Origin: Nostoc sp. PCC 7120 = FACHB-418
GTDB lineage: Bacteria > Cyanobacteriota > Cyanobacteriia > Cyanobacteriales > Nostocaceae
Assembly: GCF_000009705.1 (NCBI RefSeq)
Contig: NC_003272.1
Span: 3,270,001 to 3,302,000 of the forward strand
Direction: 5' to 3'
DNA: 32,000 nt
The position numbers and the translations under genes were made by a program. The notes beneath the pieces were generated by a model. That model had not been told where the DNA came from. It was given only the letters and a program-made list of their open reading frames with translations, and did not search any database. Of the stretch, positions 4,535-20,180 are shown piece after piece. How positions within the stretch are numbered: position 1 is the stretch's first letter; every line of letters begins with the position of its first letter.

Positions 4535-4883
4535 GTTATGGTGGATGTAATTTGCATAGAAACAGCAACGCAGTGATTGTGACTCAATTCTTACTAGGAG
4601 ACTCGTCATATTCTTCATACATAATTTTTACTCTAGCTTTTTACTATCCCATGTTATTTATATTAAGGATGATTCTATTGCATCCACATTTGTCAAACCC
4701 ATTTACACTAGGTATTTACCATTTGCGGATGAGTCTAATATAATAAGCATTATGCTAATGTACATAAGTTTTAATAATGTTTAAGTATTTATAAATAAGT
4801 AATACTTGGTTTAAATTGCTCGATTATGGCATACAATGGCAGAATGCCATAAAAAAATAAAAAAAATAATTAAAAGTTAATTC

Positions 4884-4956
4884 GGGGTTATAGCTCAGTT
4901 GGTAGAGCACTTCAATGGCATTGAAGGGGTCAGCGGTTCGAATCCGCTTAACTCCA
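4884..4956 (+). tRNA. tRNA-Ala (anticodon GGC)
   Basis: A 73-nt cloverleaf folds by hand. Acceptor stem GGGGTTA/TAACTCC carries the G3:U70 Ala identity pair. D-arm is GCTC-AGTTGGTA-GAGC. Anticodon stem is CTTCA/TGAAG with loop ATGGCAT, placing GGC at 4917-4919. T-arm is AGCGG-TTCGAAT-CCGCT. The discriminator is A and CCA is not encoded. Confidence 0.95.
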
Positions 4957-4958
4957 TT

Positions 4959-5116
4959 TGTACATTAAATATTTATTGTCAGTTTTAAAGAATTATTGTC
5001 CAATTTTACCCTGTGAAGAGACATGAATTGCGTGTTTCCTTGACTTTCAGCAGTTAATTCAGTTTCAAAGAATTATTGTCCAAAGTTGAAACCAGTTTTA
5101 AAGAATTATTGTCCAA
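4959..5116 (+). repeat. tRNA-proximal transposon end (LE-like) with putative TnsB binding sites
   Basis: The terminal sequence TGTACATTAAATATTTATTGTCAG runs 4959-4982. It is followed by three direct copies of CAGTTT(T/C)AAAGAATTATTGTCCAA at 4980-5003, 5060-5083 and 5093-5116. The terminal TGTACA matches my recollection of the ShCAST ends. Confidence 0.6.
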
Positions 5117-5287
5117 AAAGTAAGTTGGAAGGTTTAAGCAGGAAAAATCCAGTAATTTAAGCGACGCAAGTGTCAGTTAAATACACAGTTGCTTTTAGTA
5201 CCAAAGTCTATAGTTTAGTTTTGGCTAAACAGCCGACCACAATATAAACAATCTAAAAGTCACCCTGCTTTAGGCTTAAAGCTTATA

Positions 5288-6320
5288 ACTTTACGCGATG
5301 TGCGACTTATTGTTTCGTTACACAAGTTCGGTGTATGAACGATTGAAAAGAAAATTCCCACAATCCGCACTGGAGCGAGAAAATCGTTACCAGTGAATGG
5401 AATGCGGGAAAAATGTTTTCTATTGAAGAGTTTATCATTGCCGTATTTTGCTGTGTTGACGACGTGCTGATGGAAATCACCCAGATATACCCAATCAAGA
5501 GACGAGGTTTTGCTCCGAGTTTAAGGGAGAGTGAAGTTTTAACAATGGAAGTAGTGGCAGAGTTTTTGGGAATAGATGCTGACAAAGACATTTGGAAATA
5601 CTTTCACCGTCACTGGTTAGGGCTATTTCCTCAGTTAAAGAGTCGCTATGCTTTTATTCGTCAAGCAGCTAATTGTTGGCAGTACAAGGAACTCATACAA
5701 CAAAAATTAGCACAGTATTTAGGAGCATACTCTGATCAACTTCATTTGATTGATGGATTACCAATACCTTTGTGTGGCTTGAGTCGCGCTCCCAACTGCC
5801 GAAGTTTTAAATCCCTTGCAGATTATGGTTTTTGTGCTGCTAAAAAACAGACGTACTATGGGTTTCATGGGCATTTAATCGTTAGTGGCACAGGAGTTAT
5901 TAGTGGGTTTACCCTGACTCCGGCAAATGGCAGTGAACGGGACGCACTTTGGGATTTAATCACGCGAATTAAAGGTTTATTAATCGGAGATAAGGGCTAT
6001 TTAAGTCAGTTCTTGTCAGGAGAACTTAAAGAAGTGGGTATTACTTTACAAACCCCTTTGCGTTCTAATATGTCTGACTCTCGTAGCCGATCTTCAGTGC
6101 GATTAATGCAACGCTTTCGTCGCCTAATTGAAACAGTAATTGGTCAATTAGTTGAGAGATTTCATATAGAGAAGATTCGAGCGAGAGATATGTGGCATCT
6201 TACCAGTCGGCTCAATCGCAAGATTTTAGCTCATACCGTCTGTTTCTGGCTTAATCGCCACAATTGTGACCCTCTTCAGTTCGACGATCTTGTTACAGAA
6301 TATTAAGTCGCACATGGCGT
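5288..6320 (+). mobile_element. IS982-family insertion sequence, copy 1
   Basis: It is near-identical to 15411-16443 at a constant offset of 10123 nt, with only a few substitutions. Imperfect terminal inverted repeats are ACGCGATGTGCGACTTA (from 5293) and TAAGTCGCACATGGCGT (ending 6320). It has a single transposase ORF. No target-site duplication is visible. Confidence 0.8.
5413..6306 (+). CDS. IS982-family DDE transposase
   Basis: The 297-aa product has motifs I associate with IS982: LIDGLPIPLC, ADYGFCAAKKQTYYGFHGHL, TLTPANGSERD and LIGDKGY. Confidence 0.8.
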   Translation: MFSIEEFIIAVFCCVDDVLMEITQIYPIKRRGFAPSLRESEVLTMEVVAEFLGIDADKDIWKYFHRHWLGLFPQLKSRYAFIRQAANCWQYKELIQQKLAQYLGAYSDQLHLIDGLPIPLCGLSRAPNCRSFKSLADYGFCAAKKQTYYGFHGHLIVSGTGVISGFTLTPANGSERDALWDLITRIKGLLIGDKGYLSQFLSGELKEVGITLQTPLRSNMSDSRSRSSVRLMQRFRRLIETVIGQLVERFHIEKIRARDMWHLTSRLNRKILAHTVCFWLNRHNCDPLQFDDLVTEY

Positions 6321-6832
6321 GATTTTTGGTTATCTAGGTTTTGGCGGATGCCTTCAGAGACGGAAACGGTGCTGCGTTTAAGTTCGAGTACACCGATCGC
6401 AATACCATTAACATAAAGTACGATATCTGGGCGTTTGGTGTTTTCGCCTTTGACTGTGACTTCTTCGGCGATCGCAAAATCATTTTCTAGGGGTTTTTCC
6501 CAGTTGATCAGCCAAACGGTTTGGGTGTTCTCGCCAACTTCTTCTTTGACATTAACCCCATAGCGCAGGAGGCTATAAACTTGTTTGTTGATGTCATAAA
6601 GGCTTTTGCTTTGATCGCCTGCGACTTTGTTGAGTTCATACAAGGCTTTGGTGATCAGGCTGTTGCTGTAGCCTTGTTTGTCGCGTAGGAAGGTGCTGAG
6701 GATTTCCGTTTCGATGTTGCTGTTGTTAGGTCGGTCGTGCCAATCACCCAGATAGCGATATTTTAATTGTTGCTGGAATAGTTGCACAATGCGGTTTTGG
6801 GTTTGGCGTTCGCGTTGTCCGACCTTGCTCAT
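6321..6832 (-). pseudogene. hsdR: Type I restriction enzyme R subunit, N-terminal fragment truncated by IS982 copy 1
   Basis: The N-terminus MSKVGQRERQTQNRIVQLFQ...RPDIVLYVNGIAIGVLELKRSTVSVSEGIRQNLDNQK is typical of HsdR. After about 171 codons the frame runs into the IS inverted repeat and stops. No helicase domains follow anywhere in the window. Confidence 0.8.
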
Positions 6833-6935
6833 AGCAACTCTCTCACTGTGATAATCACGGATTTACTCAGCTTTAAATATGACACTGTTAATCAAACTAT
6901 GTCATCTCTATTTGTGTCATCCGTGAATTTTCTGT

Positions 6936-7340
6936 CTAGCTTAATGTTTGTAACCAGGAAGTACCTGTGAGATTGGTATCGACTGTAGCTAAGGTCAACT
7001 GGTGGTGAACTGCGGTAGCAGCAATAAAGCGATCGCCTGGGTCTTGATGTGGTAGCTGAATCTGACGGCTTAAAATAGCGATGTGGCGGTTAAGTGGAGC
7101 TTCACGAATTTCTAGGGTATTTAAGGCTAAATCGACCCATGCAACTGGATTAGGCTGTAAAGATATTCGTCCTTTTTCTGCTAAAAGTAGCGTTTCCCAG
7201 ATACTAATTGGACTGAGCCAAAGTTCGGTTGTTGTTGCTGCAATAGTGGTTTGAAGCCCAGGAGATAGGCGTTCGTTACCCAGCAAATACCAAAGCCAGA
7301 TGTGGGTATCAAGTAATAGCTTCACTGGAGTGCTTCCCAT
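6936..7340 (-). CDS. vapC: PIN-domain toxin, VapC family
   Basis: Motifs seen are LLLDTHIWLW and DPGDRFIAATAV. It lies directly downstream of, and overlapping, a small antitoxin gene. An alternative GTG start at 7325 gives the classic 4-nt GTGA overlap with the antitoxin stop. Confidence 0.85.
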   Translation of the reverse strand: MGSTPVKLLLDTHIWLWYLLGNERLSPGLQTTIAATTTELWLSPISIWETLLLAEKGRISLQPNPVAWVDLALNTLEIREAPLNRHIAILSRQIQLPHQDPGDRFIAATAVHHQLTLATVDTNLTGTSWLQTLS

Positions 7341-7558
7341 GTGGCAGCAGGGATTACTGGAGCAATTACGTCTCCCAATATTTCGCCGCTACCCTTCATT
7401 GCGCCAAATGCTGGGCGTTGGGGTTGAGGGGTGGCGGGATAGATAATGACTAAGGGTTCCCCGTCATGGGTGACGGTTACGGGTGTTTTAGTGCGTTGTA
7501 TTTCTGCAAATATTTGTTGCAGGGTTTCAGGCAGTTCGCTGGTAGCAATGTGTTCCAT
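7322..7558 (-). CDS. Type II antitoxin (Phd/YefM-like)
   Basis: The 78-aa ORF is translationally coupled to vapC. The segment TPVTVTHDGEPLVIIYP resembles Phd/YefM-type antitoxins. Confidence 0.7.
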   Translation of the reverse strand: MEHIATSELPETLQQIFAEIQRTKTPVTVTHDGEPLVIIYPATPQPQRPAFGAMKGSGEILGDVIAPVIPAATWEALQ

Positions 7559-7623
7559 AGTAAGGTTTAGCTTTTGTTCTTGCTTCTATTCTAGAGATTG
7601 GCGGTTGAAAACTCTAACGTTGA

Positions 7624-8907
7624 TCAAGAACTGCAAATTAGTCTCGTTTTTCCGGTGAGAAGTTCTTGCATCATGCCCTGTTTTATGGCTTTGTATTTAT
7701 CGCGCTTTTGTTCTAAGGCTGCGATTTCTGTATCCATGTCGCTGAGGATTTGGGCGATCGCTTTTTGTTCAGGGAGAGAAGAGACGGGAATTTTAAATTT
7801 ACTAATCCCTTTTACAGTTAATTGTGGTTGTGCGCTTCCAAATACAGCCCTATCAATCTGAGTTTGGAAAAGATGTGATTTCAAAAAACTATAAAGATAA
7901 CTATTGTCTAAATTCTTATCTTCACTTCTTAAAATTACCATTCCCGAATTTATCCGAATATTTTCAAAGGGGACAGAATAATCAAAAAATGCAATATTAC
8001 CTACAGTCCCACGAGTTGTTAACACCACATCTTTTTTACATAGCTTTCCATTTCCTAATAAATTATCTTTTTCCTTTGTTATAAAAGTACAATCCGAAAA
8101 CTTAAACCCTCCTTTTGTGACATTTTTGGCACTTAAAAACAAGCAATATCCATTGTCAAAAAGCTCATCATTGCTTGGATAATTATCTCCTCTATCTCCA
8201 TCTACCACTTTTAGAACTTGCTCAAATTCCTCCACCTCCCACTCGCCACTAAAACCCGGCAAGCGTTTCTCTCCCGTGAGGAGTTGCTGCATCGTGCCTT
8301 GCTTGGTGTTGTGCTTTTTGGCGATGATGCGATCGCACTCTGTAATCAGGGCATCGACATCACTGAGGGATTGGGCGATCGCTTCTTGTTCTTCTATTGT
8401 TGGAGGGATAGGAATTGAAATTTCACCTATTTGTTTTAGAGACAGAAACGGTTGCGCTCCTCCACTTAGAAGCTGATTGGTAATTCTAAATTTATTAAGA
8501 GAAAGACAATAATTTAAATAAGAACCGATTAAATTATTCTTATCAGGTTTTAATAATGCAACATTTTTAAGGCTAAATTCATATTCAACATCGATTAGTG
8601 CAGTTGTAGCTACTCCTGCACCGATGTTTACCATAAGCACATCATTCTTTTCTGGATTACATCGTTTGTAAATACTTTCATGTATACTTTGGGGCAAATA
8701 ATAGCAATTATTGAAATCAATAAAACCCTCTTTCACATGAATAGCAGTTAAAAATGGTATTCCTTGAGCAAGTGGTTTTGGTGTATCGTGAGTTCCGTCT
8801 GTAATTTTATTACAACATTCTACTAACTTTCTTATCTTCCAATCATTAGGTACGATTCCAAACTCTGTTTTTTGATAGCTTTCAGGAAAATTTGTTTTCA
8901 TAACCAC
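7624..8907 (-). CDS. hsdS: Type I restriction-modification specificity subunit
   Basis: The 427-aa product has two target-recognition halves, each followed by a conserved helix (EQEAIAQSLSDVDALI and EQKAIAQILSDMDTEIAALEQ). It overlaps the hsdM stop. Confidence 0.9.
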   Translation of the reverse strand: MVMKTNFPESYQKTEFGIVPNDWKIRKLVECCNKITDGTHDTPKPLAQGIPFLTAIHVKEGFIDFNNCYYLPQSIHESIYKRCNPEKNDVLMVNIGAGVATTALIDVEYEFSLKNVALLKPDKNNLIGSYLNYCLSLNKFRITNQLLSGGAQPFLSLKQIGEISIPIPPTIEEQEAIAQSLSDVDALITECDRIIAKKHNTKQGTMQQLLTGEKRLPGFSGEWEVEEFEQVLKVVDGDRGDNYPSNDELFDNGYCLFLSAKNVTKGGFKFSDCTFITKEKDNLLGNGKLCKKDVVLTTRGTVGNIAFFDYSVPFENIRINSGMVILRSEDKNLDNSYLYSFLKSHLFQTQIDRAVFGSAQPQLTVKGISKFKIPVSSLPEQKAIAQILSDMDTEIAALEQKRDKYKAIKQGMMQELLTGKTRLICSS

Positions 8908-11312
8908 ACAATCCCCATCTGCTGAAGATGCCCCTCAACCTTAGTCGTCAACTCATCCACCCGACTCGTCAACTCCGGTAAAGGTGTATCATACCGTTCA
9001 GCCAATTCCTGAATTCGCTGCGCCAACCGTTGCGAAATCTGATCCATCTCAGAAGCGATCGCCTGTCTTAACGTCTGCATCCACTTATCATCAACTACTA
9101 GGTTTTTAATTTCATCCTCTGTTAATTCCTGATATTTTTTTAACACCTGATTATGTAAAGATTGGGTAGCCTCTCTAATTTCTTTATTAAGTTCCGCTTC
9201 TGACTCAATCAATTTCAAATAAGACTTTAGAACTTTCAACTCATCCGCATCCGCAAAAAGAGGATTTTTCTGAATTTCCTTAATCCGAAGATTAATGTTC
9301 GCTTTAGTGATTTTCCCACTATCGTTAGTGACTTCCTCCAGCAAACCATCATCACCGCCATGTTCTTCTTGCAGTTCTTCCTGCTGGCGAACAATTTCAT
9401 CTTTTTTCGTTTCCAAAGTTGCGATCGCCGCCTGTTCAGTTTGAAAATAGCGATTAATCATCAACTCCTTCGGAATCAGTTCGCAGACATAATCTGTTAC
9501 TACACCTTTCTTATTCGTCACCGCTTTCAGTTCTGCCTTCCAGCCATCCTCAACCAAAATATAAACATCATCTTTCATACTTTCCACCCAATAAGTCATT
9601 AGGTGCTGGTAAACATCGTATTTATCAATCAGACTTTTACCCGTAAACCCTTGCAGCAAGTCTTCCGAGAGCGCGTAAATAATCGCCTTGGGCTTATCTC
9701 CCGGCTGGATGGCTTTCAGCAAAGGCGTGTGTTTCCCTTGCCACGTCTCAAAAACCGCTTGAATGTCTTTCCCATAGCTGATAAATTCAGGATGGGCAAA
9801 AATACAAGCTTTGACTTCTGAGCCTGGAATTTTGAGCATCAGGTATCCTGGGCGATCGGCCGCCTCAAATAATTCCTGTTGCAGCGTCGGGTAAACCTGC
9901 CAGTAATCGCTCAAAGCCTCAATATCTCGCTTGGGTATCCCCCCCAACAGATGCGCCTCAATATCCTGAATATCTTCCTCTTCCTGAGAGTCGATATAGC
10001 GCGGAATATTCAGGTTGTACTCATTCCCCGCAATTTCCTCAACTGGAACCATCCGCGAATACTTCGCCACCTCAAGCTGTTTGTTGAAGACATCAACAAT
10101 CTTATGAATGTCCTGCTCCCGCAGACGGTTTTTATTGCCGTCTTTAACAAATCCCTTGCTGGCATCAATCATAAAAATGCCTTGGCGATTCTCGGCATCT
10201 TCTTTGTCTAACACAATAATGCAGGCTGGTATCCCTGTGCCATAAAACAAGTTCGGCGGTAGCCCAATAATCCCTTTAATAATGCCCTTACTAATCAGAT
10301 TTTTCCGAATTTCTGCCTCCGCATTCCCCCGAAACAGCACCCCATGCGGTAGAATAATCGCTCCTTTGCCATTACTTTTCAGAGAGCAAACCATGTGCAG
10401 CAAAAAAGCATAGTCCCCATTTTTAGCTGGAGGAATCCCATAGTTATCAAACCGTTGAAACTCATCCTTGGCTAGATCAAGTCCATTACTCCAAGCCTTG
10501 GAGGAAAAGGGAGGATTAGCCACAGCAAAATCAAAAGTTTTCAGGCTACCATCCGCATCTTTGAAGTAAGGACTTGATAAAGTATTATCCTGCCAAATCT
10601 CAGCAGTAGGGTGTCCGTGCAGGATCATGTTCATCCGAGCCAAGGCGCGGGTAGCGTTGTCCATCTCTTGCCCGTAGATAGTTAAGCCCCGTTCCGCTTC
10701 ATCCGCCGACTTTAACAACAGAGAACCACTACCACAAGTCGGGTCATAAATCGTCTGACTCTGGCTTTGGGCTGAATTAACCCCAATAACTTGAGAGATG
10801 ACACGGGAAACTTCCGCCGGAGTATAAAATTGACCCTTGCTTTTACCTGATTGTGTCGCAAAGTTCCGCATCAGTTACTCATAGGCATCGCCTAAAATAT
10901 CATCACCATCAGCACGATTCTTACTAAAATTCAAAGCAGGGGTTTCAAAAATCGCCACCAAGTTGGAAAGCCTATCCTGCATTTCCTTACCCTTACCCAG
11001 CTTGTCGGCATTATTGAAATCAGCGACATCAATGACACCCTTTAAATCATTGGCTTCGGCTAAATTGGTAATAATTTTGTTGATACCATCCCCGATATCT
11101 TTCTGTCCTTTTAGCGCCACAATATCCTGAAATCCGCCACCTTCAGGCACTTCAATCAGCACATCTGCGACACCAGCGTATTTATCAGATACATATTTAA
11201 CGAACAATAAAACCAGTACATAATCCTTATACTGCGAGGCATCCATACCACCCCGCAGTTCATCACAGCTTTTCCATAACGAACTATATAGTTCACTTTT
11301 CTTAATTGCCAT
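8898..11312 (-). pseudogene. hsdM: Type I R-M DNA methyltransferase subunit interrupted by a single in-frame TAA
   Basis: The 145-aa HsdM N-domain ORF (10875-11312) and the 657-aa catalytic ORF (8898-10871) are in the same frame. The junction reads GAYE-TAA-LMRNFATQSGKSKGQFYTP, with the stop codon at 10875-10877 where HsdM proteins normally have Tyr. Motif I DPTCGSGSLL and motif IV NPPF are present. Confidence 0.85.
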
Positions 11313-11509
11313 TTCGTGTAGCCTTTAAAAGACCTCCCCCGATCAACTTTGCCAGACGTTCTCAAGCCCGTCTGACACTTTGCCTTGAAGTTTTTACATC
11401 GTGCAAAGAACCAATAACATACCACGCACAAGAACTTAGCTCATGTAGTGGCTGAGGATATATCGTATACCAGGAATGCTCAAATTGGCGTAAATACAAC
11501 AGCTACATA

Positions 11510-11674
11510 TTATTGCGGCGGATTTTGCTTCTCTCGCTCCTCAACAGCCTTACTCACAATCCGCACAACCAGATTACTGATGGGACGGTCTTCTTCCTGC
11601 GCCCATCTCACCAAAGCATCGTGGATATCTTTGGGGAAATATATCGAAGTTTGCACGCGATCGCTCTGGCTCAT
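11510..11674 (-). CDS. Small ribbon-helix-helix (CopG/Arc/MetJ-like) DNA-binding protein, candidate CAST or R-M regulator
   Basis: I translated this 54-aa ORF by hand because it is below the track cutoff: MSQSDRVQTSIYFPKDIHDALVRWAQEEDRPISNLVVRIVSKAVEEREKQNPPQ. It shows a beta-strand, helix, helix pattern typical of RHH repressors. It is divergent from cas12k and co-directional with hsdM. Confidence 0.55.
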   Translation of the reverse strand: MSQSDRVQTSIYFPKDIHDALVRWAQEEDRPISNLVVRIVSKAVEEREKQNPPQ

Positions 11675-11771
11675 CAACAATAAAACGATTTGTAATCAAA
11701 TCAAAAACGATTTGTAGTCCAACCATCATACCTTCACAACCTTGCTACAGGGCTAAATAAAGTTTAACAAT

Positions 11772-11839
11772 GTGTGGCAATGTTTATATGTTAGATTAGA
11801 AACATTGCCGAACATTAATAAAACGTGTGGCAATGTTTA
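11772..11839. promoter_or_regulatory. Operator-like repeat cluster in the RHH/cas12k divergent intergenic region
   Basis: GTGTGGCAATGTTTA occurs twice, at 11772-11786 and 11825-11839. The inverted core AAACATTGCC lies between them at 11800-11809. This gives three GGCAATGTTT cores arranged direct, inverted, direct. Confidence 0.4.
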
Positions 11840-12085
11840 ATGCCTTTAGCTATTACCTCGAAAGTTCACGCTATGTGCGGCTTCAGCAATATTAATGAGT
11901 TTGCATTGATGAAGAACTTCCCAAATCTACAAAGTCATCAGCAGATTTGAGAAGTTGCTGCAAAAGTACCGAGATTTTTGTATGGCGATCGCGTCAAGTG
12001 CGATCGTTGCCTAGTGAAGGTAAATAGGTGATTGATTTTAGTCACACAAATAGAAAAGGGTGTATTTGCTGGAGATATTGTCACT

Positions 12086-14110: not shown

Positions 14111-14140
14111 AATTTCCCCCTAAAGATTGTATTATTTTAA

Positions 14141-14212
14141 ATATTAAATCGGTGCCATCTATTATGATGCGACAGTATCACCCCTTTGTGTAGATACTGT
14201 AAGAATGGGTTA
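14141..14212 (+). ncRNA. tracrRNA-like gene, 5' segment upstream of the IS insertion
   Basis: It starts 31 nt after the cas12k stop with ATATTAAATCGGTGCC (compare ShCAST tracrRNA AUAUUAAUAGCGCCGC, recalled). It ends in GGGTTA, which joins GTTTAAC at 15125 once the IS and one TTA copy are removed. Confidence 0.55.
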
Positions 14213-14235
14213 GAGACCATTTATAAAGTAAATCT

Positions 14236-14676
14236 TTAGACGACTAGACGACGTAGCATAATACGAGTCATAACGGCATATATGGCAGCCTCACTCATTT
14301 CTGGGAGATGCTCATAATCCTTACTGAGACGACGGTACTGGTTTAACCTGCCAAATGTTCTTTCTACTACCCACCGTTTGGGCAAAACCTGAAATTCTTG
14401 ATTAGTACGCCGGATTACCTCAACATGAGCTTGAATCATCAGCCAAACAGAGAGCGCAAATTTATCACCGTCATAGCCGGAATCAACCCAGATGACTTCA
14501 ACTTTTTCCAGTAATTCTGGACGCTCTTCTAACAGTTCCATCAAAGTATAGGCGGCAAGTAATCTTTCTCCAGCATTTGCTTCACTTACAACCACTTTTA
14601 ACAAAAGTCCCAGACTATCAACCAAAGTTTGCCGCTTTCGTCCTTTTACCTTCTTGCCACCATCAAAACCGTACAC
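14236..14676 (-). CDS. IS5-family transposase orfB (DDE catalytic part), probably expressed by -1 frameshift from orfA
   Basis: The product contains GFDGGKKVKGRKRQ and WVVERTFGRLNQYRRLSKDYE. The slippery heptamer A AAA AAG lies at 14683-14689 on the minus strand, in the orfA/orfB overlap. Confidence 0.8.
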   Translation of the reverse strand: MYGFDGGKKVKGRKRQTLVDSLGLLLKVVVSEANAGERLLAAYTLMELLEERPELLEKVEVIWVDSGYDGDKFALSVWLMIQAHVEVIRRTNQEFQVLPKRWVVERTFGRLNQYRRLSKDYEHLPEMSEAAIYAVMTRIMLRRLVV

Positions 14677-15029
14677 ATCCCCCTTTTTTCAGTCGTTTTT
14701 ACCGACTGGCTGTCTGCCGCGATCGCCGTGGGTTGAGTTGACTTCCCCATTTTTTGACGAACTTGATCGCGCAAAGTATGATTCATTTGCTCCCAGATAC
14801 CTCGTTTTTGCCATTTACGATAGTAGCTGTAAACAGTTGAACTAGGAGGAAAATCCCCTGGAAGCATATCCCACTGACAACCTGTTTTCAGATGGTAGTA
14901 GATAGCGTTGCATACTTCTCGCATATCAGTTGTTCGGGGATGCCCACCGCATTTAGCGGGTGGAATCAAAGGAGCTAAAATTGCCCATTCTGAGTCATTA
15001 AGGTCTGTAGAATAAGACTTTCGTCTCAT
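14646..15029 (-). CDS. IS5-family transposase orfA (DNA-binding N-terminal part)
   Basis: The 127-aa product contains LNDSEWAILAPLIP and YYHLKTGCQWDMLP. It ends just after the A6G slippery site. Confidence 0.8.
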   Translation of the reverse strand: MRRKSYSTDLNDSEWAILAPLIPPAKCGGHPRTTDMREVCNAIYYHLKTGCQWDMLPGDFPPSSTVYSYYRKWQKRGIWEQMNHTLRDQVRQKMGKSTQPTAIAADSQSVKTTEKRGMCTVLMVARR

Positions 15030-15124
15030 TGTTTCCTATGTAAATACACTCTACAAACAGTATCTTATCGCTGCCTTTTTATCTGATGGCTCTCCTTTAG
15101 ATTTACTTTATAAATAGCCTCTTA

Positions 15125-15315
15125 GTTTAACGCTTGGATAAGCGTATTCTTTCTGGCCCTGGTGGCTGCCAACTCTACCTGTGCGATCATCTAAGTGTTT
15201 GTTAGCAGTAATTGCTTGGGTAAGTAAATGCTGCTTTTAGATGAGAAAGGACTCGCACCGAGACGCATGGGAAGTATAAGGTGTTAGGGTTTCAAACAGC
15301 CCAGAACCTTAGCTC
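15125..15315 (+). ncRNA. tracrRNA-like gene, 3' segment (3' end approximate)
   Basis: GTTTAACGCTTGGATAAGCGTATTCTTTCTGGCCCTGGTGGCTGCC parallels ShCAST GUUUGACUGUAUAAAUACAGUCUUGCUUUCUGACCCUGGUAGCUGCU (recalled). The hairpin ACGCTT-GGAT-AAGCGT replaces ACUGUAU-AA-AUACAGU, which looks like compensatory change. The CUUUCUG.CCCUGGU.GCUGC block is conserved. Confidence 0.55.
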
Positions 15316-15410
15316 TTGACATCAAACTCTTTTAGCTTGGTGTTGGGTGCCAGAGCGGCCTGTATGATCTAAATCTTCGATTTTGATTTTACAGTGACTT
15401 TCTACCTCTT

Positions 15411-16443
15411 ACTTTACGCGATGTGCGACTTATTGTTTCGTTACACAATTGAGGTGTATGAACGATTGAAAAGAAAATTCCCACAATCCGCACTGGAGCG
15501 AGAAAATCGTTACCAGTGAATGGAATGCGGGAAAAATGTTTTCTATTGAAGAGTTTATCATTGCCGTATTTTGCTGTGTTGACGACGTGCGGATGGAAAT
15601 CACCCAGATATACCCAATCAAGAGACGAGGTTTTGCTCCGAGTTTAAGGGAGAGTGAAGTTTTAACAATGGAAGTAGTGGCAGAGTTTTTGGGAATAGAT
15701 GCTGACAAAGACATTTGGAAATACTTTCACCGTCACTGGTTAGGGCTATTTCCTCAGTTAAAGAGTCGCTATGCTTTTATTCGTCAAGCAGCTAATTGTT
15801 GGCAGTACAAGGAACTCATACAACAAAAATTAGCACAGTATTTAGGAGCATACTCTGATCAACTTCATTTGATTGATGGATTACCAATACCTTTGTGTGG
15901 CTTGAGTCGCGCTCCCAACTGCCGAAGTTTTAAATCCCTTGCAGATTATGGTTTTTGTGCTGCTAAAAAACAGACGTACTATGGGTTTCATGGGCATTTA
16001 ATCGTTAGTGGCACAGGAGTTATTAGTGGGTTTACCCTGACTCCGGCAAATGGCAGTGAACGGGACGCACTTTGGGATTTAATCACGCGAATTAAAGGTT
16101 TATTAATCGGAGATAAGGGCTATTTAAGTCAGTTCTTGTCAGGAGAACTTAAAGAAGTGGGTATTACTTTACAAACCCCTTTGCGTTCTAATATGTCTGA
16201 CTCTCGTAGCCGATCTTCAGTGCGATTAATGCAACGCTTTCGTCGCCTAATTGAAACAGTAATTGGTCAATTAGTTGAGAGATTTCATATAGAGAAGATT
16301 CGAGCGAGAGATATGTGGCATCTTACCAGTCGGCTCAATCGCAAGATTTTAGCTCATACCGTCTGTTTCTGGCTTAATCGCCACAATTGTGACCCTCTTC
16401 AGTTCGACGATCTTGTTACAGAATATTAAGTCGCACATGGCGT
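15411..16443 (+). mobile_element. IS982-family insertion sequence, copy 2
   Basis: It is near-identical to copy 1 and in the same orientation. Its left flank is about 95 bp past the tracrRNA-like region. Its right flank is an AT-rich cassette. No target-site duplication is visible. Confidence 0.8.
15536..16429 (+). CDS. IS982-family DDE transposase
   Basis: The 297-aa product differs from the copy 1 protein at one residue, VDDVRME versus VDDVLME. Confidence 0.8.
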   Translation: MFSIEEFIIAVFCCVDDVRMEITQIYPIKRRGFAPSLRESEVLTMEVVAEFLGIDADKDIWKYFHRHWLGLFPQLKSRYAFIRQAANCWQYKELIQQKLAQYLGAYSDQLHLIDGLPIPLCGLSRAPNCRSFKSLADYGFCAAKKQTYYGFHGHLIVSGTGVISGFTLTPANGSERDALWDLITRIKGLLIGDKGYLSQFLSGELKEVGITLQTPLRSNMSDSRSRSSVRLMQRFRRLIETVIGQLVERFHIEKIRARDMWHLTSRLNRKILAHTVCFWLNRHNCDPLQFDDLVTEY

Positions 16444-16572
16444 AACACTAGTAATTTAATAATTAACTGAAAATAATTATTTCATGGTAATATACTAAAC
16501 TCGTTAAAATAAAAAGTGATTTATTAGGATAGTATTAATCTTTTAAAAAAGATGTAAAACGTTCAACAAATT

Positions 16573-17058
16573 ATGCAGGGTTCTATCATTGGCAGCTTCC
16601 GTAAATATTACAGAGAAATTAGGGGGGTTATAGATTTATTTGAAAGTGTAGGAATTTTTATTCTTTCTCCCACAAAATCACAAGTTATAAACCCAGATGA
16701 GGAATTTGTATTACTTGAAAGTGATGACTTAAACTACTCTCCTGTGGAAATACAACTCATAGCTTTTCATAGAATCTTAAGATCAAGTTTTGTGTATACA
16801 TTTTGTCCTAACGGTTATATTGGACGTACTACGGCATATGAAATAGGACGAGTTGTAGAACGTAAAATAAAATTATTTTTCAGTGAAGCTCCAAAAGATT
16901 TACCTATTTTTTTGCCACAAAATTCTATTTGGAGTCCAAAAGATTTTAGTAAATATTTCTTAACTAATGGAAAATTACCTGAAACTTTAGAGGCTGGAAG
17001 TAAAACACTTTCAGAAAAGTTACATAATGATTTATTCTTAGGAAAGTATCAAGATTAA
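16573..17058 (+). CDS. Hypothetical protein, nucleoside 2-deoxyribosyltransferase / DNPH1(Rcl)-like fold (tentative)
   Basis: The 161-aa product has an N-terminal IIGSFRKY and a later GYIGRTTAYEIGRVVERKIKLFF. These resemble the (Y/F)xxGSxR and G.GxExGxAxxxxKP(I/V) signatures of the family. The region is AT-rich and contains no HIP1 sites. Confidence 0.45.
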   Translation: MQGSIIGSFRKYYREIRGVIDLFESVGIFILSPTKSQVINPDEEFVLLESDDLNYSPVEIQLIAFHRILRSSFVYTFCPNGYIGRTTAYEIGRVVERKIKLFFSEAPKDLPIFLPQNSIWSPKDFSKYFLTNGKLPETLEAGSKTLSEKLHNDLFLGKYQD

Positions 17059-17086
17059 ATTAGGTACATAATTTATAGGTGTTAGT

Positions 17087-17530
17087 ATGGAAAAAAAACA
17101 TATTGTAATATGCGGTAGTATGTCTAATTATGAGGAAATGTTAAAATACCAAAACATTTTAATAAAAAATAACATTCCTTGTCTAGTTCCTGAAAATGAG
17201 GGAGAACTAATCAAACACCTTTCAAGAGATGAATTTAATGAGTTCAAAAGAAAAGTCTCAAAAAGGCATTTTGAAGAAATTATCAATAATAATGTTTTTG
17301 CAATTTTAGTAGTCAATCCTACCAAAAATTATATTCCTAATTATATAGGTGCTAATACCTTTGCAGAGATTGCTATAGCATTTTATAAACAAAGGCAAAT
17401 ATTCCTTCTCTATGATATATATGAGGGTTTCAAAGATGAATTGATTGCTTGGGATATAAAACCACTTCAAGGAAATATTAATTCATTAATAGAACAATAC
17501 AATTCCTGTATTTACTCTAAAACTAAATAA
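17087..17530 (+). CDS. Hypothetical protein, nucleoside 2-deoxyribosyltransferase / DNPH1(Rcl)-like fold (tentative), paralog of the upstream gene
   Basis: The 147-aa product contains HIVICGSMSNY and YIGANTFAEIAIAFYKQRQIFLLY, the same two-motif layout as 16573-17058. The gene is preceded by an AGGTG Shine-Dalgarno-like sequence. Confidence 0.5.
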   Translation: MEKKHIVICGSMSNYEEMLKYQNILIKNNIPCLVPENEGELIKHLSRDEFNEFKRKVSKRHFEEIINNNVFAILVVNPTKNYIPNYIGANTFAEIAIAFYKQRQIFLLYDIYEGFKDELIAWDIKPLQGNINSLIEQYNSCIYSKTK

Positions 17531-17573
17531 CTCAGTTTCCCAAAAAATCTGATTAGACAAAGTAAACAAATGA

Positions 17574-18030
17574 ATGATAGGCAAGATACTGCTACACTTT
17601 TTGGATAATGAATTAATCACTTTATTTGGTATCAAACAATCAGGGAAAATTTCTAAAAAAATATATCAAGAACTTCGCTTGTCTACTAGATTAGCCTTCC
17701 TTCTATGTTCAGACAAGGTTGTCATTCCTGCATCAAACTATTTTGAATCACCTTTTGCCAAAAAAATTCTTGATGAACTACAAGAATTTAGCGAATTTGG
17801 TTATCTTGGTCTCATTTCTAGTTCAATGAATGTTTTAGAGTTTGTTGAAAAAAAGAAGGAGCAATATTCAACCGATAGAAATCGTTATCCCATATACTTT
17901 AAATCTCTTGAATCACAGTCTAGTCTTTCTATTTCTGCTACATGGATACCCCGCAATAAAAGTGCTACAGAAGACATTACACAAAACTGGATTACTAATA
18001 TAGATAATAGTAGTATTTGGAAAAAGTTTT
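17574..18030 (+). pseudogene. Hypothetical protein gene whose 3' end is interrupted by the ISL3 element
   Basis: The ORF reads into the ISL3 left inverted repeat, which starts at 18031. The terminal residues WFFR-stop are encoded by the IS. I recognise no family. Confidence 0.4.
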
Positions 18031-19446
18031 GGTTCTTCCGGTAGTTTTATGGTGTTTATTAGAATTGACTTGATTTTAATAACTTATAATTTAGTGATAT
18101 CAATGCCTATAAGATAGATTACATAGGCATTTAGTAAATATCAAGCATAGTTAAAGAACTCTAAAATTATCATCTATATTATAATATAGTAAAGTTTTAG
18201 GCGATCGCTATGAAGTTTCCAGTAGAACAAATCCTGAATCTTCCCGATATGAAAGTATTAGATTTTCAAGAACTTGAAGGTGAAGAAATAATTATAACGA
18301 TAGAAAAAAGTGTGAACTATTCGACTTGTCCTTGGTGCGGTCAAATGACTCACAGTATACATCAAAATCACTGGCGAATAATTCATGATTTACCGTGGAA
18401 TAAAAAACCAGTGTTATTAAAAATAAATCGTCGGCAATTTAAATGTCATAAGTGTAAAAAAGTATTTAGCGAACAACTAGACTTTGTAGATAAAAGTAAA
18501 GGATATACTAAAAGATTAGCGACCGACATAGTTCAACAAGTATTAAATAGTAATATCCGGAGTGTTGCCCAAAGAAATGGATTAAGTGATGAAGAAGTAG
18601 AATCAATGTTAAAAAAGCAAGTCTCGCACATATTAAACATTAACCTAAGTCAGGTAAAAAAGTTAGGTATAGATGAAATAGCTTTAGTTAAAGGAAAAGG
18701 AAACTACTTAGCAATATTAGTGGATTTAGATACTCATAAACCAATTGAGATAGTGCAATCAAGACGAATAGAAGATATTCGTGAAGTACTTGTCAGTTGG
18801 GGAGTTGAGATACTTAATCAAATTGAAGAAGTGAGCATTGACCTCTGGTTGCCTTATAAAAATTTAGTAGAAGAGTTAATGCCAAATGCTAATATAACTG
18901 CTGATAGATTTCATGTAATGAAACAAGTAAATGACGAATTAGATACTATGCGTAAAGCTGAAAATAAAGCAGCTATATCGCTAGATAATAAATCAGAAAA
19001 AGAGCGAATATTAGAGGCATTGAATAAGAGTAAATATGCGATTATTAAAAATGAAGACTCTCTAAATGAAAAGCAAAGAGAAAAATTAAAATCTGTGCAA
19101 GAGGTGTCGCCAAATCTCGCCAAAATGCACTCACTTAAAGAACAATTTCGAGATATATTTGAAACAACTAAATCCTGGGGAGATAGTATAATAAAACTAT
19201 TGGATTGGATGTATGATGCACTTTCATATTTCCCGAAAAGTATAGGTACAATAGTTAGATGGTTTGGTGAAATAGTCGGTTATTTTGACGGAAGAACCAC
19301 AAGTGGTGCTGTAGAAGGAATTAATAATAAACTCAAGTTAATTAAAAGACTTGGATATGGCTTTCGTAACTTTACCAATTTCAGATTACGCAGTTTGTTA
19401 AACTGGCATTTTACTATTAATTCTCCATAAAATTAACTGAAGAACC
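18031..19446 (+). mobile_element. ISL3-family insertion sequence
   Basis: The terminal inverted repeats are GGTTCTTCCGGTAGTTTTATGG (from 18031) and CCATAAAATTAACTGAAGAACC (ending 19446). It has a single 406-aa transposase ORF. I could not identify an 8-bp target duplication. Confidence 0.8.
18210..19430 (+). CDS. ISL3-family transposase
   Basis: An N-terminal zinc-finger pattern CPWCG...CHKCKK is followed by LGIDEIALVKGKGNYLAILVDLD and ITADRFHVMKQVNDELD, which are typical of ISL3 DDE transposases. Confidence 0.85.
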   Translation: MKFPVEQILNLPDMKVLDFQELEGEEIIITIEKSVNYSTCPWCGQMTHSIHQNHWRIIHDLPWNKKPVLLKINRRQFKCHKCKKVFSEQLDFVDKSKGYTKRLATDIVQQVLNSNIRSVAQRNGLSDEEVESMLKKQVSHILNINLSQVKKLGIDEIALVKGKGNYLAILVDLDTHKPIEIVQSRRIEDIREVLVSWGVEILNQIEEVSIDLWLPYKNLVEELMPNANITADRFHVMKQVNDELDTMRKAENKAAISLDNKSEKERILEALNKSKYAIIKNEDSLNEKQREKLKSVQEVSPNLAKMHSLKEQFRDIFETTKSWGDSIIKLLDWMYDALSYFPKSIGTIVRWFGEIVGYFDGRTTSGAVEGINNKLKLIKRLGYGFRNFTNFRLRSLLNWHFTINSP

Positions 19447-19998
19447 AGAAAGATTTAAAGATGTTAAAGTTTGTTTAATACATCAACATCCTCTTGTGCA
19501 AAATTGTCCTTGCTGTCATCGCCAACTACTTTGGTTAGACTGGCAATCCAGTTTAGGCTATTGTTAACACTAGTTAGGAACACATTATACTACTCCAGTA
19601 GTTACTCAGAAAAGATCGATAGTCTGAAAGTTTATATCCCATACCAGCATGAACCGCTTCTGCTCCATGCTCAAAAAACCCACTACTTTCTGTGAAGTGA
19701 TAAAAAAGTTTAACTCAAGCTATTGTAGGGTGGGAATCTGGCCCACCCATGTTATGCAAGGTAAATGTCTAACAGCTTAGGAGCGCACTCACGAAAAAAT
19801 TAGCATCCGGCGTAGCATCTGGCTAAGCCATAGTTTCAAGCACACACAATCAAACGCAAATTTATAGATTTTTAATTTACAATTTTTAGTCAATTAATGC
19901 CTAGCATTTCAACTTATGGTCACTTAATACTTGTTGATAGGTTTTTCTGCTGCGATCGCCATAACTAAAGAATGAACATTTCAAAGTCCATCTTGGTC

Positions 19999-20100
19999 AA
20001 CTATTGGTTGTCACTTTGGACAACTAATGGTTGTTGTCGCAATGTGTAAAGTCACAAACTATTGGTTGTCAGTTTGGACAACTTATGATTGTTGTAGCAA
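19999..20100. repeat. Distal transposon end (RE-like): two 44-bp units with inverted TTGTCCAA cores
   Basis: AACTATTGGTTGTCA(C/G)TTTGGACAACT(A/T)ATG(G/A)TTGTTGT(C/A)GCAA occurs at 19999-20042 and 20057-20100, a 58-bp period with 4 mismatches. Each unit contains TTGGACAA, the reverse complement of the core repeated at 4996-5116. A possible terminus TTGTTGTAGCA ends near 20103. Confidence 0.5.
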
Positions 20101-20180
20101 AAGGTTTGTTCTCAGTATACCTAGCAAGATTCAAGTACGATTTCTATAGTATTTGTAATTCATACTTAAGAATTGACCAA

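What the first reader, a model, noticed from the sequence alone, without database searches (positions are those of the whole stretch)
4884..20103. A ~15 kb decayed type V-K CRISPR-associated transposon sits immediately downstream of tRNA-Ala
Seen in the sequence: a TGTACA terminus begins 2 bp after the tRNA 3' end, followed by three 24-bp direct repeats with core ATTATTGTCCAA. About 15 kb away, just before the next core gene, the reverse-complement core TTGGACAA recurs in two 44-bp units. Between these boundaries lie a full-length Cas12k-like ORF, a tracrRNA-like sequence, defence cargo (type I R-M, vapBC) and three IS families. From established knowledge: type V-K CASTs (Cas12k plus TnsB/TnsC/TniQ, first shown for Scytonema hofmanni) are cyanobacterial Tn7-like elements. 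They home downstream of tRNA genes. The tns genes sit at the target-proximal end and cas12k-tracrRNA-array at the other. Inference: this is such an element, but it has only the guide-effector half left. The class is published, so this locus is interesting as a natural decay intermediate and for its unusual accessory content.
Basis: partly seen in the sequence, partly recalled or inferred. Interest (0 to 1): 0.85.

Follow-up and report, generated by a model that had tools for sequence, protein, structure and literature searches.

The report
Known, broken V-K CAST relic

Summary
The window matches Anabaena sp. PCC 7120 chromosome 3,270,001-3,302,000. The locus is published as CAST "PCC 7120_(2)", a degraded type V-K_V2 system (PMC9938897, PMC12416283).

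The tRNA-side end (4959-5116) is a true V2 transposon end. It aligns with seven other V2 CASTs and lies 54 nt from the PAM of the V2 homing protospacer.

In V-K CASTs the array, tracrRNA and cas12k lie at the tRNA side and tnsB/C/tniQ at the far end. Here the block hsdR'-vapBC-hsdS-hsdM-arc_2-cas12k-tracrRNA (6321-15415) is inverted relative to that end. It is bounded by two IS982-family copies that lack the 6-bp target duplications seen at four other copies of this IS in these strains' genomes.

Missing or damaged:
- tnsB, tnsC and tniQ
- the CRISPR array and homing spacer
- the tracrRNA 3' end; an IS5 element also splits the tracrRNA
- most of hsdR, and hsdM has an in-frame stop

The proposed right end (19999-20100) shares only an 8-bp core with V2 TnsB sites. 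It has no TGTACA and no matching 5-bp duplication, so it is not the V2 right end.

The R-M/vapBC cargo is shared with some other V2 elements, so it is not unusual. Verdict: real, partly misread, already known, low interest.

The parts
4884..4956 (+). tRNA-Ala(GGC), the homing target. PAM GTA at 4902-4904; anchor protospacer GAGCACTTCAATGGCAT at 4905-4921.
   Evidence: ARAGORN and Rfam. The protospacer equals the 17-nt anchor spacer next to the truncated repeat in L086 and L115 and, read in reverse complement, in L104. 54 nt separate the PAM from the left end, as published for V2.
4959..5116 (+). V-K_V2 tRNA-proximal transposon end (left end by homology). TGTACA terminus and four TnsB-type sites at 4959-4982, 4980-5003, 5060-5083 and 5093-5116.
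   Evidence: 88% identical over 237 bp, tRNA included, to the array-side end of the NIES-4073 CAST. Aligned with six other V2 ends. Position 4959 corresponds to 3274959, the one end listed for PCC 7120_(2) in PMC9938897 Supplementary Data 1.
5117..5292 (.). Non-coding stretch of unknown origin between the left end and IS982 copy 1. Related elements have the anchor spacer here; this stretch does not.
   Evidence: The alignment with the other V2 left ends breaks down just after the fourth TnsB site. No tRNA-matching spacer anywhere in the window.
5293..6320 (+). IS982-family insertion sequence, copy 1 (transposase 5413-6306). Flanks AACTTT and GATTTT, so no target duplication.
   Evidence: NCBIfam NF033520 E=9e-77. 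Ends defined from six copies; four other copies have perfect 6-bp duplications.
6321..6832 (-). hsdR fragment: the N-terminal 175-179 aa of a protein that is 1016 aa in relatives, cut exactly at the IS982 end.
   Evidence: Pfam HSDR_N. 90% identical to residues 1-175 of NIES-4073 HsdR. Homology to intact hsdR starts at 6321.
6936..7558 (-). Toxin-antitoxin pair: PIN-domain toxin (VapC-like) 6936-7340 and Phd/YefM-like antitoxin 7322-7558.
   Evidence: Pfam PIN E=7e-14 and a weak PhdYeFM hit. 92% and 97% identical to the NIES-4073 CAST cargo proteins.
7624..8907 (-). hsdS, the type I R-M specificity subunit.
   Evidence: Pfam Methylase_S. Same position as in L086 and L088.
8898..11312 (-). hsdM pseudogene: an in-frame stop after codon 145 (10875-10877) splits it into 145 aa and 657 aa.
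   Evidence: Pfam HsdM_N and N6_Mtase on separate ORFs. Translation shows ...GDAYE*LMRNF; otherwise 92% identical to the 803-aa NIES-4073 HsdM.
11510..11674 (-). arc_2: a 54-aa ribbon-helix-helix gene of the Arc_2 type, proposed in the literature as the V2 CAST repressor, upstream of cas12k on the opposite strand.
   Evidence: Pfam RHH_5 E=5e-10. The sequence equals BAB74389.1, listed as Arc_2 of PCC 7120_(2).
12086..14110 (+). cas12k, full length (674 aa), V2 clade.
   Evidence: NF038191 E=2.5e-237. PDB ShCas12k E about 1e-140. 64-74% identical to about 40 Nostocales Cas12k proteins, then a drop to 41% or less. The N-terminal 400 or so residues printed for BAB74390.1 are identical.
14143..14213 (+). 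tracrRNA_V2, first 70 nt or so, counted from the published transcription start (3284143).
   Evidence: PMC12416283. Homology to L086 runs through 14213.
14212..15122 (-). IS5-family (IS1031 group) element inserted in the tracrRNA gene; a simple insertion with a 3-4 bp overlap (TAG). Transposase ORFs 14236-14676 and 14646-15029.
   Evidence: Pfam DDE_Tnp_1_2 and DUF4096. Inverted repeats at 14212-14235 and 15099-15122 (I5). Published position 3,284,212-3,285,122.
15123..15415 (+). tracrRNA_V2 middle part, cut off by IS982 copy 2 before anti-repeat 2.
   Evidence: 90.6% identical to L086 12139-12435. In L086, anti-repeat 2 (AACTACCACCCCC) lies at about 12480-12492, followed by seven repeats and the anchor spacer. 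None of these is in the window.
15416..16443 (+). IS982-family insertion sequence, copy 2 (transposase 15536-16429), same orientation as copy 1. Flanks TACTTT and AACACT, so no target duplication.
   Evidence: 99.6% identical to copy 1. Flank comparison.
16444..19998 (.). Right-hand segment of unknown affiliation: three unannotated ORFs (16573-17058, 17087-17530, 17574-18044, all +); an ISL3 element (about 18021-19456, transposase 18210-19430); a 36-aa TnsD/TniQ-like zinc-finger fragment (19458-19565, +).
   Evidence: No Pfam, NCBIfam or PADLOC hits for the three ORFs. ISL3 Pfam domains. Fragment hits PDB TnsD 8v32_J at E=0.002 and TniQ 8fcu_P at E=0.009. No counterpart in any fetched V2 locus.
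19999..20100 (.). Two 44-bp units, each an imperfect palindrome around TTGTCA-N-TTTGGACAA. Not a V2 right end; possibly the end of another Tn7-like element, origin unresolved.
   Evidence: (D5). Synteny with related genomes resumes at about 20151.

Best explanation
The locus is the non-functional remnant of one type V-K, subgroup V2, CRISPR-associated transposon, published as CAST 'PCC 7120_(2)'.

Shown:
- The element homed to tRNA-Ala(GGC) by the usual V2 route. An anchor crRNA (spacer GAGCACTTCAATGGCAT in relatives) matches the tRNA. The array-side end was placed 54 nt downstream of the GTA PAM, 2 bp past the tRNA.
- That end, the arc_2-cas12k pair and the 5' 360 nt or so of the tracrRNA gene survive, together with a cargo module also found in other V2 elements (type I R-M plus a PIN/Phd toxin-antitoxin pair).
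- An IS5/IS1031 element sits inside the tracrRNA gene.
- Two IS982-family copies bound the surviving block exactly at the points where homology to intact elements stops. Both lack target duplications.
- The block is inverted relative to the tRNA-side end.
- The CRISPR array, anchor spacer, tracrRNA 3' end, most of hsdR, tnsB/tnsC/tniQ and the V2 right end are absent from the 32-kb window.
- hsdM carries a nonsense codon.

Inferred:
- Homologous recombination between IS982 copies produced the present order. The simplest scheme is one inversion between oppositely oriented copies (one just inside the left end, one in hsdR), followed by one deletion between direct copies that removed everything from the tracrRNA 3' end onwards.
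- The element can no longer move or be guided. cas12k and arc_2 remain intact probably because the decay is recent, not because they are needed.
For: Identity of the locus:
- Three published coordinates map onto the window with one offset of 3,270,000. These are the catalogued end at 3274959 (window 4959), the tracrRNA transcription start at 3284143, and the IS5 element at 3284212-3285122, which is window 14212-15122.
- The Arc_2 sequence and the printed part of Cas12k are identical to BAB74389.1 and BAB74390.1.
- Three independent complete assemblies are collinear with the window at 99.99%.

V2 membership:
- Cas12k profile and clade.
- RHH_5/Arc_2 gene upstream on the opposite strand.
- tracrRNA_V2 homology.
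- Left-end alignment.
- 54-nt PAM spacing.

Inversion:
- In seven of seven related V2 loci, cas12k (+) is followed within 1.4-4.1 kb by tracrRNA, array, anchor spacer, the left end and tRNA-Ala (-).
- In the window, 4883-5118 matches that end in the opposite relative orientation to 6321-15416.

IS982 recombination:
- Four copies in the same genomes have perfect 6-bp duplications (AAAGTA, TAGATA, TATTTA, TATGTT); the two copies here have none.
- Homology to intact hsdR and to tracrRNA ends at the IS termini.

Losses:
- No tRNA-matching spacer.
- No repeat and no anti-repeat 2.
- No TnsB, TnsC or TniQ by tblastn with V2 TnsB and V1 TnsB/TnsC/TniQ.
- No V2 sites outside the left end.
- hsdM stop and hsdR truncation.
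Against: - The order of events is not observed. The 170 bp between the left end and IS982 copy 1 (5117-5292) match nothing in other V2 elements, so at least one more event is needed.
- The inversion-plus-deletion scheme needs four IS982 insertions, two of which have left no trace.
- No related genome with an empty tRNA-Ala site or an intermediate arrangement was found.
- Only one V2 right end (L115) was available for comparison.
- The origin of 16444-20150 is unexplained by this account.
Confidence: 0.85

Rival explanations
1. One element spans 4959-20100 in its native order, with the tns genes simply deleted from the tRNA side. The cas12k-tracrRNA end is intact at the far side, and the 44-bp units form the right end.
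For: TTGTCCAA occurs only at the two boundaries and in opposite orientation. The units lie within about 50 bp of the point where synteny with relatives resumes. If TGTAGCA (20094-20100) is read as TGTACA with one extra base, the spacing from terminus to core equals that at the left end (read directly from the sequence).
Against: - The published V-K order and seven V2 loci put cas12k and the array at the tRNA side.
- A V2 right end confirmed by its 5-bp duplication carries left-end-type sites. The units share only 8 bp with these, while the rest of the element is 83-97% identical to relatives.
- No TGTACA, and no 5-bp duplication: CCATT against AAAGG.
- No tnsB remnant next to the units.
- The authors of the catalogue also found no second end.
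Confidence: 0.07
2. The right-hand segment (about 16444-20100) is the remnant of a different, older Tn7-like transposon at the same tRNA site. Its tnsD/tniQ-like gene and far end survive. The V2 CAST later landed between it and the tRNA. This is compatible with the main explanation and concerns only the right boundary.
For: - A zinc-finger fragment on the + strand (19458-19565) matches TnsD and TniQ chains in the PDB at E=0.002 and 0.009. No close relative shares three 5-residue words with it in the word-indexed protein search, and V1 TniQs match it only weakly.
- Its strand and position fit a Tn7-like order of tns genes, then cargo, then the far end.
- Read in reverse complement, the units contain four direct GNNACAAC motifs spaced about 26-32 bp apart. 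I read this arrangement by eye as Tn7-like.
- Cyanobacterial Tn7-like families with sites in both orientations and non-TGT termini are described in PMC9881144.
Against: - The protein match is short and marginal, and no other tns remnant is present.
- The units have no counterpart in 120 fetched loci. The 20-nt core of the unit found only chance hits in the metagenome scan.
- No second end or target duplication can be shown.
Confidence: 0.25
3. The IS982-bounded block (5293-16443) moved as a composite transposon, or derives from a second V2 CAST copy, and was not inverted in place.
For: The two IS982 copies are direct repeats flanking the block. The outer flanks AACTTT and AACACT agree at 4 of 6 positions.
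Against: - The outer flanks are not a 6-bp duplication, whereas four other copies have perfect ones.
- No donor or second V2 copy is reported in the catalogue, which lists only one V1 and one V2 system for PCC 7120.
- A second insertion at the same tRNA protospacer would normally be in the same orientation.
Confidence: 0.08
4. cas12k and arc_2 are kept by selection for a host function independent of transposition (domestication).
For: cas12k is full length while neighbouring genes are broken. The tracrRNA promoter is reported as still active.
Against: - No crRNA source exists, and the tracrRNA is split and truncated.
- The decay looks recent: the IS copies are 99.6% identical and hsdM has a single nonsense codon. 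An intact ORF therefore needs no selection to explain it.
- All strains carrying this gene are near-identical, so selection cannot be measured.
Confidence: 0.05

Closest known systems
Type V-K_V2 CAST, e.g. the intact element of Scytonema sp. NIES-4073 (Ziemann et al. 2025, PMC12416283)
   Same: - Cas12k clade (72% identity).
- Arc_2 gene upstream of cas12k on the opposite strand.
- tracrRNA_V2 sequence (about 90% over the part that remains).
- Left end with four TnsB-type sites (88% identity).
- tRNA-Ala(GGC) target, the same anchor protospacer and the 54-nt PAM spacing.
- The same hsdR-PIN-antitoxin-hsdS-hsdM cargo next to arc_2 (HsdM 92%, antitoxin 97%).
   Different: - No tnsB, tnsC or tniQ.
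- No right end.
- No CRISPR array or anchor spacer.
- tracrRNA split by an IS5 element and truncated before anti-repeat 2.
- The cas12k block is inverted relative to the left end.
- hsdR truncated and hsdM carrying a stop codon.
Degraded V2 CAST of Fremyella diplosiphon NIES-3275 (locus L115)
   Same: Another naturally decayed V2 element at tRNA-Ala(GGC), with IS insertions and truncated cargo.
   Different: It keeps the canonical order, the anchor spacer, both ends with a perfect 5-bp duplication (GATGG) and a 348-aa tnsB fragment. The PCC 7120 relic keeps none of these except the left end.
AnCAST, the V-K_V1 system of the same genome (all3613/alr3614, 4,361,015-4,381,776) and ShCAST
   Same: The same overall type of system: Cas12k, tracrRNA, Tn7-like ends starting TGTACA, and tRNA homing by an anchor crRNA.
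   Different: - Cas12k of this group is 41% identical or less.
- MerR-type CvkR regulator instead of Arc_2.
- Different TnsB site consensus, GTGACAAATTA..TGTCG, seen in a V1 locus.
- Different second anti-repeat, and an average PAM distance of 62 nt.
- Complete tns genes.

Membership tests
Type V-K CAST, subgroup V2 | Cas12k of the V2 clade (over 60.2% identity within V2, at most 47.5% to V1) | tested here: met
   NF038191 E=2.5e-237, full length. 64-74% identical to about 40 Nostocales Cas12k proteins including NIES-4073, then a gap down to 41% or less.
Type V-K CAST, subgroup V2 | Arc_2 (RHH_5) regulator gene upstream of cas12k on the opposite strand | tested here: met
   54-aa ORF at 11510-11674 (-), Pfam RHH_5 E=5e-10. 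Identical to BAB74389.1, listed as Arc_2.
Type V-K CAST, subgroup V2 | tracrRNA_V2 downstream of cas12k, including anti-repeat 2 (AACUACCACCCCC) | tested here: inconclusive
   About 360 nt of tracrRNA_V2 are present (14143-14213 plus 15123-15415, about 90% identical to L086). It is split by an IS5 element, and anti-repeat 2 is absent.
Type V-K CAST, subgroup V2 | CRISPR array with repeats ending GGTGGTGGGTTGAAAG, and a truncated repeat plus a 17-nt anchor spacer matching the tRNA | tested here: not met
   No repeat with up to 3 mismatches. No 16-mer with up to 2 mismatches to the tRNA region other than chance hits. No tandem array.
Type V-K CAST, subgroup V2 | Array-side end downstream of a tRNA gene, 54 nt from the PAM of the anchor protospacer, with V2-type TnsB sites | tested here: met
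   TGTACA at 4959. PAM GTA at 4902-4904, with 54 nt between. Four sites conserved with six other V2 ends.
Type V-K CAST, subgroup V2 | tnsB, tnsC and tniQ next to the opposite end | tested here: not met
   tblastn with the V2 TnsB N-terminal 348 aa and with V1 TnsB, TnsC and TniQ finds nothing in the island.
Type V-K CAST, subgroup V2 | Second end with V2 TnsB sites and a 5-bp target duplication | tested here: not met
   V2 sites occur only at 4959-5116. No ACA followed by CCATT anywhere in the window. The published catalogue lists the other end as NA.
Type V-K CAST, subgroup V2 | Canonical order: tRNA, left end, anchor spacer, array, tracrRNA, cas12k, then regulator, cargo, tniQ-tnsC-tnsB, right end | tested here: not met
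   The cas12k block is inverted relative to the left end and 7 kb from it.
Type V-K CAST, subgroup V2 | RNA-guided transposition activity | not testable with these tools
   By inference it is inactive: there is no transposase, no crRNA and no second end.

The most novel reading that the evidence does not exclude
cas12k and arc_2 are the only intact core CAST genes left, and the tracrRNA promoter is reported as still firing. They could therefore be retained for a host function, for example DNA binding or regulation without transposition. That would be a domesticated Cas12k. Separately, the right-hand segment might preserve the end of an undescribed Tn7-like family with palindromic 44-bp units.
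Probability: 0.06. Interest if true: 0.55.

Novelty: already known. Interest (0 to 1): 0.22.

Why it matters
It matters little beyond bookkeeping. The element is catalogued (PMC9938897 Supplementary Data 1) and described as degraded (PMC12416283).

This analysis adds three small points:
- The only end listed for this system is, by homology, the tRNA-side (array-side) end. The cas12k block is therefore inverted.
- Both flanking IS982 copies are recombinant.
- The apparent far-end repeats are not a V2 end.

The locus is an example of how insertion sequences dismantle a CAST in a model cyanobacterium. It also shows that cas12k plus one transposon end does not define an element's boundaries.

Tried and rejected
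- **Empty-site search.** 80 loci around orthologues and paralogues of the histidine kinase were fetched. The 18 scanned for tRNA genes, including the closest relatives, have none within 10 kb, and the eight closest share synteny only to the right of about 20151. No empty site could be defined.
- **Homing spacer.** None matching the tRNA was found anywhere in the window.
- **V2 tns genes of intact relatives.** Five Cas12k look-ups stopped short of tnsB. A ShTniQ query returned only V1 proteins among the 120 listed. A V2 right end and tnsB fragment finally came from a decayed element (L115).
- **The 44-aa TnsD-like fragment.** It found no relative in the large protein collection. Six-frame translation of 19431-20180 gave no further PDB matches.
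- **The 44-bp unit.** It is absent from the 93 loci held at that point and from viral contigs. The metagenome scan gave four chance hits inside unrelated GC-rich coding DNA.
- **IS982 in plasmids.** No match.
- **The three ORFs at 16573-18044.** Pfam, NCBIfam and PADLOC gave nothing. A PDB search of the middle ORF gave only E of about 0.3 to TRPM8 N-terminal domains.
- **Rfam.** Only the tRNA was found.
- **Literature.** The paper on PCC 7120 insertion sequences (PMC2950511) is not held. The supplements of PMC12416283 are not held.
- **Rejected readings.**
  - An assembly artefact: three independent complete genomes agree.
  - A simple inversion between the two extant IS982 copies: they are direct repeats.
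  - Composite-transposon movement: the outer flanks are not a duplication.

Full report
**Observation**

- tRNA-Ala(GGC) lies at 4884-4956.
- TGTACA starts at 4959, 2 bp after the tRNA.
- The 24-bp repeat CAGTTT(T/C)AAAGAATTATTGTCCAA occurs at 4980, 5060 and 5093. Its 19-nt core is found nowhere else in the window even with 3 mismatches, and no shuffle gives three hits.
- I read a fourth, degenerate terminal copy at 4959-4982.
- Two 44-bp units lie at 19999-20042 and 20057-20100.
- The ORF at 12086-14110 is a full-length Cas12k: NF038191 E=2.5e-237, profile 2-629 of 629, and ShCas12k structures at E of about 1e-140.
- The IS elements are an IS982-family element in two copies, an IS5/IS1031 element and an ISL3 element. 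The cargo is a type I R-M system plus a PIN/Phd toxin-antitoxin pair.

**Where the window comes from, and what is already published**

The Cas12k protein is encoded identically in three complete 6.41-Mb chromosomes (AP018216.1, CP183817.1, CP183473.1), which are collinear with the window at 99.99% over 22 kb.

Ziemann et al. 2025 (PMC12416283) describe a degraded V-K_V2 system in Anabaena sp. PCC 7120. Its tracrRNA starts at 3284143 and is interrupted by an IS5/IS1031 element at 3,284,212-3,285,122. The IS5 inverted repeats in the window are at 14212-14235 and 15099-15122, so the window is BA000019.2 shifted by 3,270,000.

Supplementary Data 1 of Ziemann et al. 2023 (PMC9938897) lists this element as 'Anabaena sp. 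PCC 7120_(2)'. It gives Cas12k BAB74390.1 and Arc_2 BAB74389.1. One end is given at 3274959, which is window 4959, and the other end is 'NA'. The locus and its degraded state are therefore known.

**Subgroup**
- The Cas12k is 64-74% identical to about 40 Nostocales Cas12k proteins, including that of NIES-4073. Identity then drops to 41% or less. This matches the published V2/V1 split.
- A 54-aa RHH_5 gene (11510-11674, - strand) lies upstream of cas12k on the opposite strand. This is the Arc_2 regulator type that defines V2.

**Architecture of intact relatives**

I fetched V2 loci around Cas12k homologues: L086 (NIES-4073), L088, L090, L092, L093, L104 and L115.

In all seven, cas12k (+) is followed within 1.4-4.1 kb by tRNA-Ala on the minus strand. 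I read L086 in full and the distal parts of L115. In L086 the order is:
- tracrRNA_V2, then a short array with repeat GTTTCAACAGCCATCCCGGCAGGTGGTGGGTTGAAAG;
- a truncated repeat with the 17-nt anchor spacer GAGCACTTCAATGGCAT;
- four TnsB-type sites, then TGTACA;
- tRNA-Ala on the minus strand.

This is the published general V-K order. The tRNA-proximal end abuts the anchor spacer, array, tracrRNA and cas12k. tnsB-tnsC-tniQ lie at the opposite end.

**The tRNA-side end is genuine**
- Window 4883-5118 is 88% identical to L086 13578-13343 and aligns through all four sites with six V2 ends.
- The window tRNA contains the anchor protospacer at 4905-4921, preceded by GTA.
- Exactly 54 nt separate the PAM from TGTACA. 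This is the distance reported as constant for V2.

**The cas12k block is inverted and bounded by recombinant IS982 copies**

Window 6321-14213 and 15122-15416 match L086 4199-12142 and 12139-12435 on the same strand. The tRNA-side end matches on the opposite strand. The block from hsdR' to the tracrRNA is therefore inverted relative to the end it should adjoin.

Homology stops exactly at the termini of two IS982-family copies (5293-6320 and 15416-16443), which are direct repeats and 99.6% identical. I defined the termini and target duplications from other copies in the same genomes. Four copies have perfect 6-bp duplications (AAAGTA, TAGATA, TATTTA, TATGTT). The two copies here have AACTTT/GATTTT and TACTTT/AACACT. 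Both are therefore products of recombination or adjacent deletion.

The simplest scheme I can construct has two steps:
- An inversion between oppositely oriented copies just inside the left end and in hsdR. This leaves the two surviving copies in direct orientation with three of the four observed junctions.
- A deletion between direct copies, which removes the tracrRNA 3' end, the array, the anchor spacer, the rest of hsdR and everything distal.

This scheme is inference. The 170 bp at 5117-5292 match no other V2 element, so the history is more complex than this.

**What is missing or broken**
- There is no spacer against the tRNA, no V2 repeat, no anti-repeat 2 and no tandem array.
- tblastn finds nothing in the island with the N-terminal 348 aa of a V2 TnsB or with V1 TnsB, TnsC and TniQ.
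- The IS5 insertion in the tracrRNA is a simple insertion, with a 3-4 bp overlap between the flanking homology segments.
- hsdR retains 175-179 of 1016 codons.
- hsdM has an in-frame stop after codon 145 but is otherwise 92% identical to the NIES-4073 protein.

**Cargo**

The module hsdR, PIN toxin, 78-aa antitoxin, hsdS, hsdM sits next to arc_2 in NIES-4073 and in L088. Truncated versions are present in L104 and L115. Protein identities are 89-97%, except for the specificity subunit HsdS at 41%. The module is inherited V2 cargo, not an unusual acquisition. L090, L092 and L093 carry other cargo.

**The proposed right end**

L115 (Fremyella diplosiphon NIES-3275) gave a V2 tnsB-side end. It reads ggatgg|TGTCCATTAAATAATTATTGTCCATTTTAAAGAATTATTGTCCA..., followed by a tnsB fragment. 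A perfect 5-bp duplication, GATGG, flanks both ends of that element. V2 right ends therefore carry the same site consensus as left ends.

The window's 44-bp units differ in several ways:
- They share only TTGTCCAA with this consensus.
- There is no TGTACA at the right boundary.
- The flanks are CCATT at the left and AAAGG at the right, and no ACA|CCATT junction exists anywhere in the window.
- The 8-mer count (5 observed, 1.84 expected) amounts to two independent occurrences.
- The rest of the element is 83-97% identical to relatives, so neutral decay cannot explain so divergent an end.

The units are absent from every other fetched locus. In the metagenome scan the 20-nt core of the unit hit only unrelated coding DNA. 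I conclude they are not the V2 right end.

**The right-hand segment (16444-20150)**

It holds three ORFs without any family match. It also holds an ISL3 element whose terminal repeats I place at about 18021 and 19456, without an evident duplication. A 36-aa zinc-finger fragment on the + strand matches TnsD (8v32_J, E=0.002) and TniQ (8fcu_P, E=0.009) chains in the PDB. That fragment has no close relative sharing three 5-residue words in the large protein collection.

Read in reverse complement, the 44-bp units contain four direct GNNACAAC motifs 26-32 bp apart. Some cyanobacterial Tn7-like families have sites in both orientations and termini that are not TGT. A remnant of a second Tn7-like element stacked at the same tRNA is therefore possible, at about 0.25. 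The evidence for it is thin.

Synteny with related genomes resumes at about 20151, so the island does end near the units.

**Mechanism and status**

Shown: V2 homing placed the element at tRNA-Ala, and IS elements then disrupted it.

Inferred: the relic is immobile and unguided. It has no transposase, no second end and no crRNA, and its tracrRNA is broken. cas12k and arc_2 are probably intact because the damage is recent: the IS copies are nearly identical and hsdM has a single nonsense codon.

**Novelty and score**

The element is already known. The new details are small: the listed end is the array-side end by homology, the block is inverted, both IS982 copies lack duplications, and the far-side repeats are not a V2 end. 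Interest is 0.22.

Noticed in passing
L094 (CP183817.1 4371606-4375499), inside the published AnCAST V1 interval 4,361,015-4,381,776: The other CAST of the same genome also carries a type I R-M with a PIN-toxin pair as cargo. It has a copy of the same IS982-family element inserted beside hsdS, with a perfect AAAGTA duplication.
   Followed up: partly
L097 / L100 (CP183817.1 about 1.83 Mb): Another copy of the IS982-family element lies between cas1 and cas2 of a CRISPR adaptation module, with duplication TATTTA.
   Followed up: no
window 10875-10877 (- strand): A single in-frame stop splits hsdM into 145 aa and 657 aa. All three complete PCC 7120-type assemblies annotate the same split ORFs.
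   Followed up: yes
window 19458-19565 (+): Short pseudogene fragment RFKDVKVCLIHQHPLVQNCPCCHRQLLWLDWQSSLGYC. It resembles the zinc finger of TnsD/TniQ proteins in the PDB, and matches V-K TniQ only weakly.
   Followed up: partly
window 16573-18044 (+): Three small ORFs (161, 147 and 156 aa) with no Pfam, NCBIfam or PADLOC match. The middle one has a marginal PDB match (E about 0.3) to the N-terminal region of TRPM8. The left inverted repeat of the ISL3 element overlaps the 3' end of the third ORF.
   Followed up: partly
L098, L103 (JGI contigs): These contigs join the hsdR' flank of IS982 copy 1 to different left flanks (a DUF2887 gene, a Mn-catalase gene). They are probably assembly chimeras across the repeated IS, but could be substrain rearrangements.
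   Followed up: no
L086 13505-13577 against 13249-13265: In NIES-4073 the anchor spacer differs from its own tRNA-Ala protospacer at one position (T against C). It matches the PCC 7120 tRNA perfectly.
   Followed up: no
L104 8242-9057; L115 4802-7707: Other V2 CASTs are also hit by IS elements. L104 has a DDE_Tnp_1 IS between the array and the left end. L115 has an IS66 and a further IS replacing most of the cargo and tns genes. IS-driven decay seems common in this subgroup.
   Followed up: no
window 7754, 8375, 9421, 14719 and others: The octamer GCGATCGC recurs many times; from memory this is the HIP1 palindrome typical of cyanobacterial genomes. It seeds spurious short repeat families.
   Followed up: no
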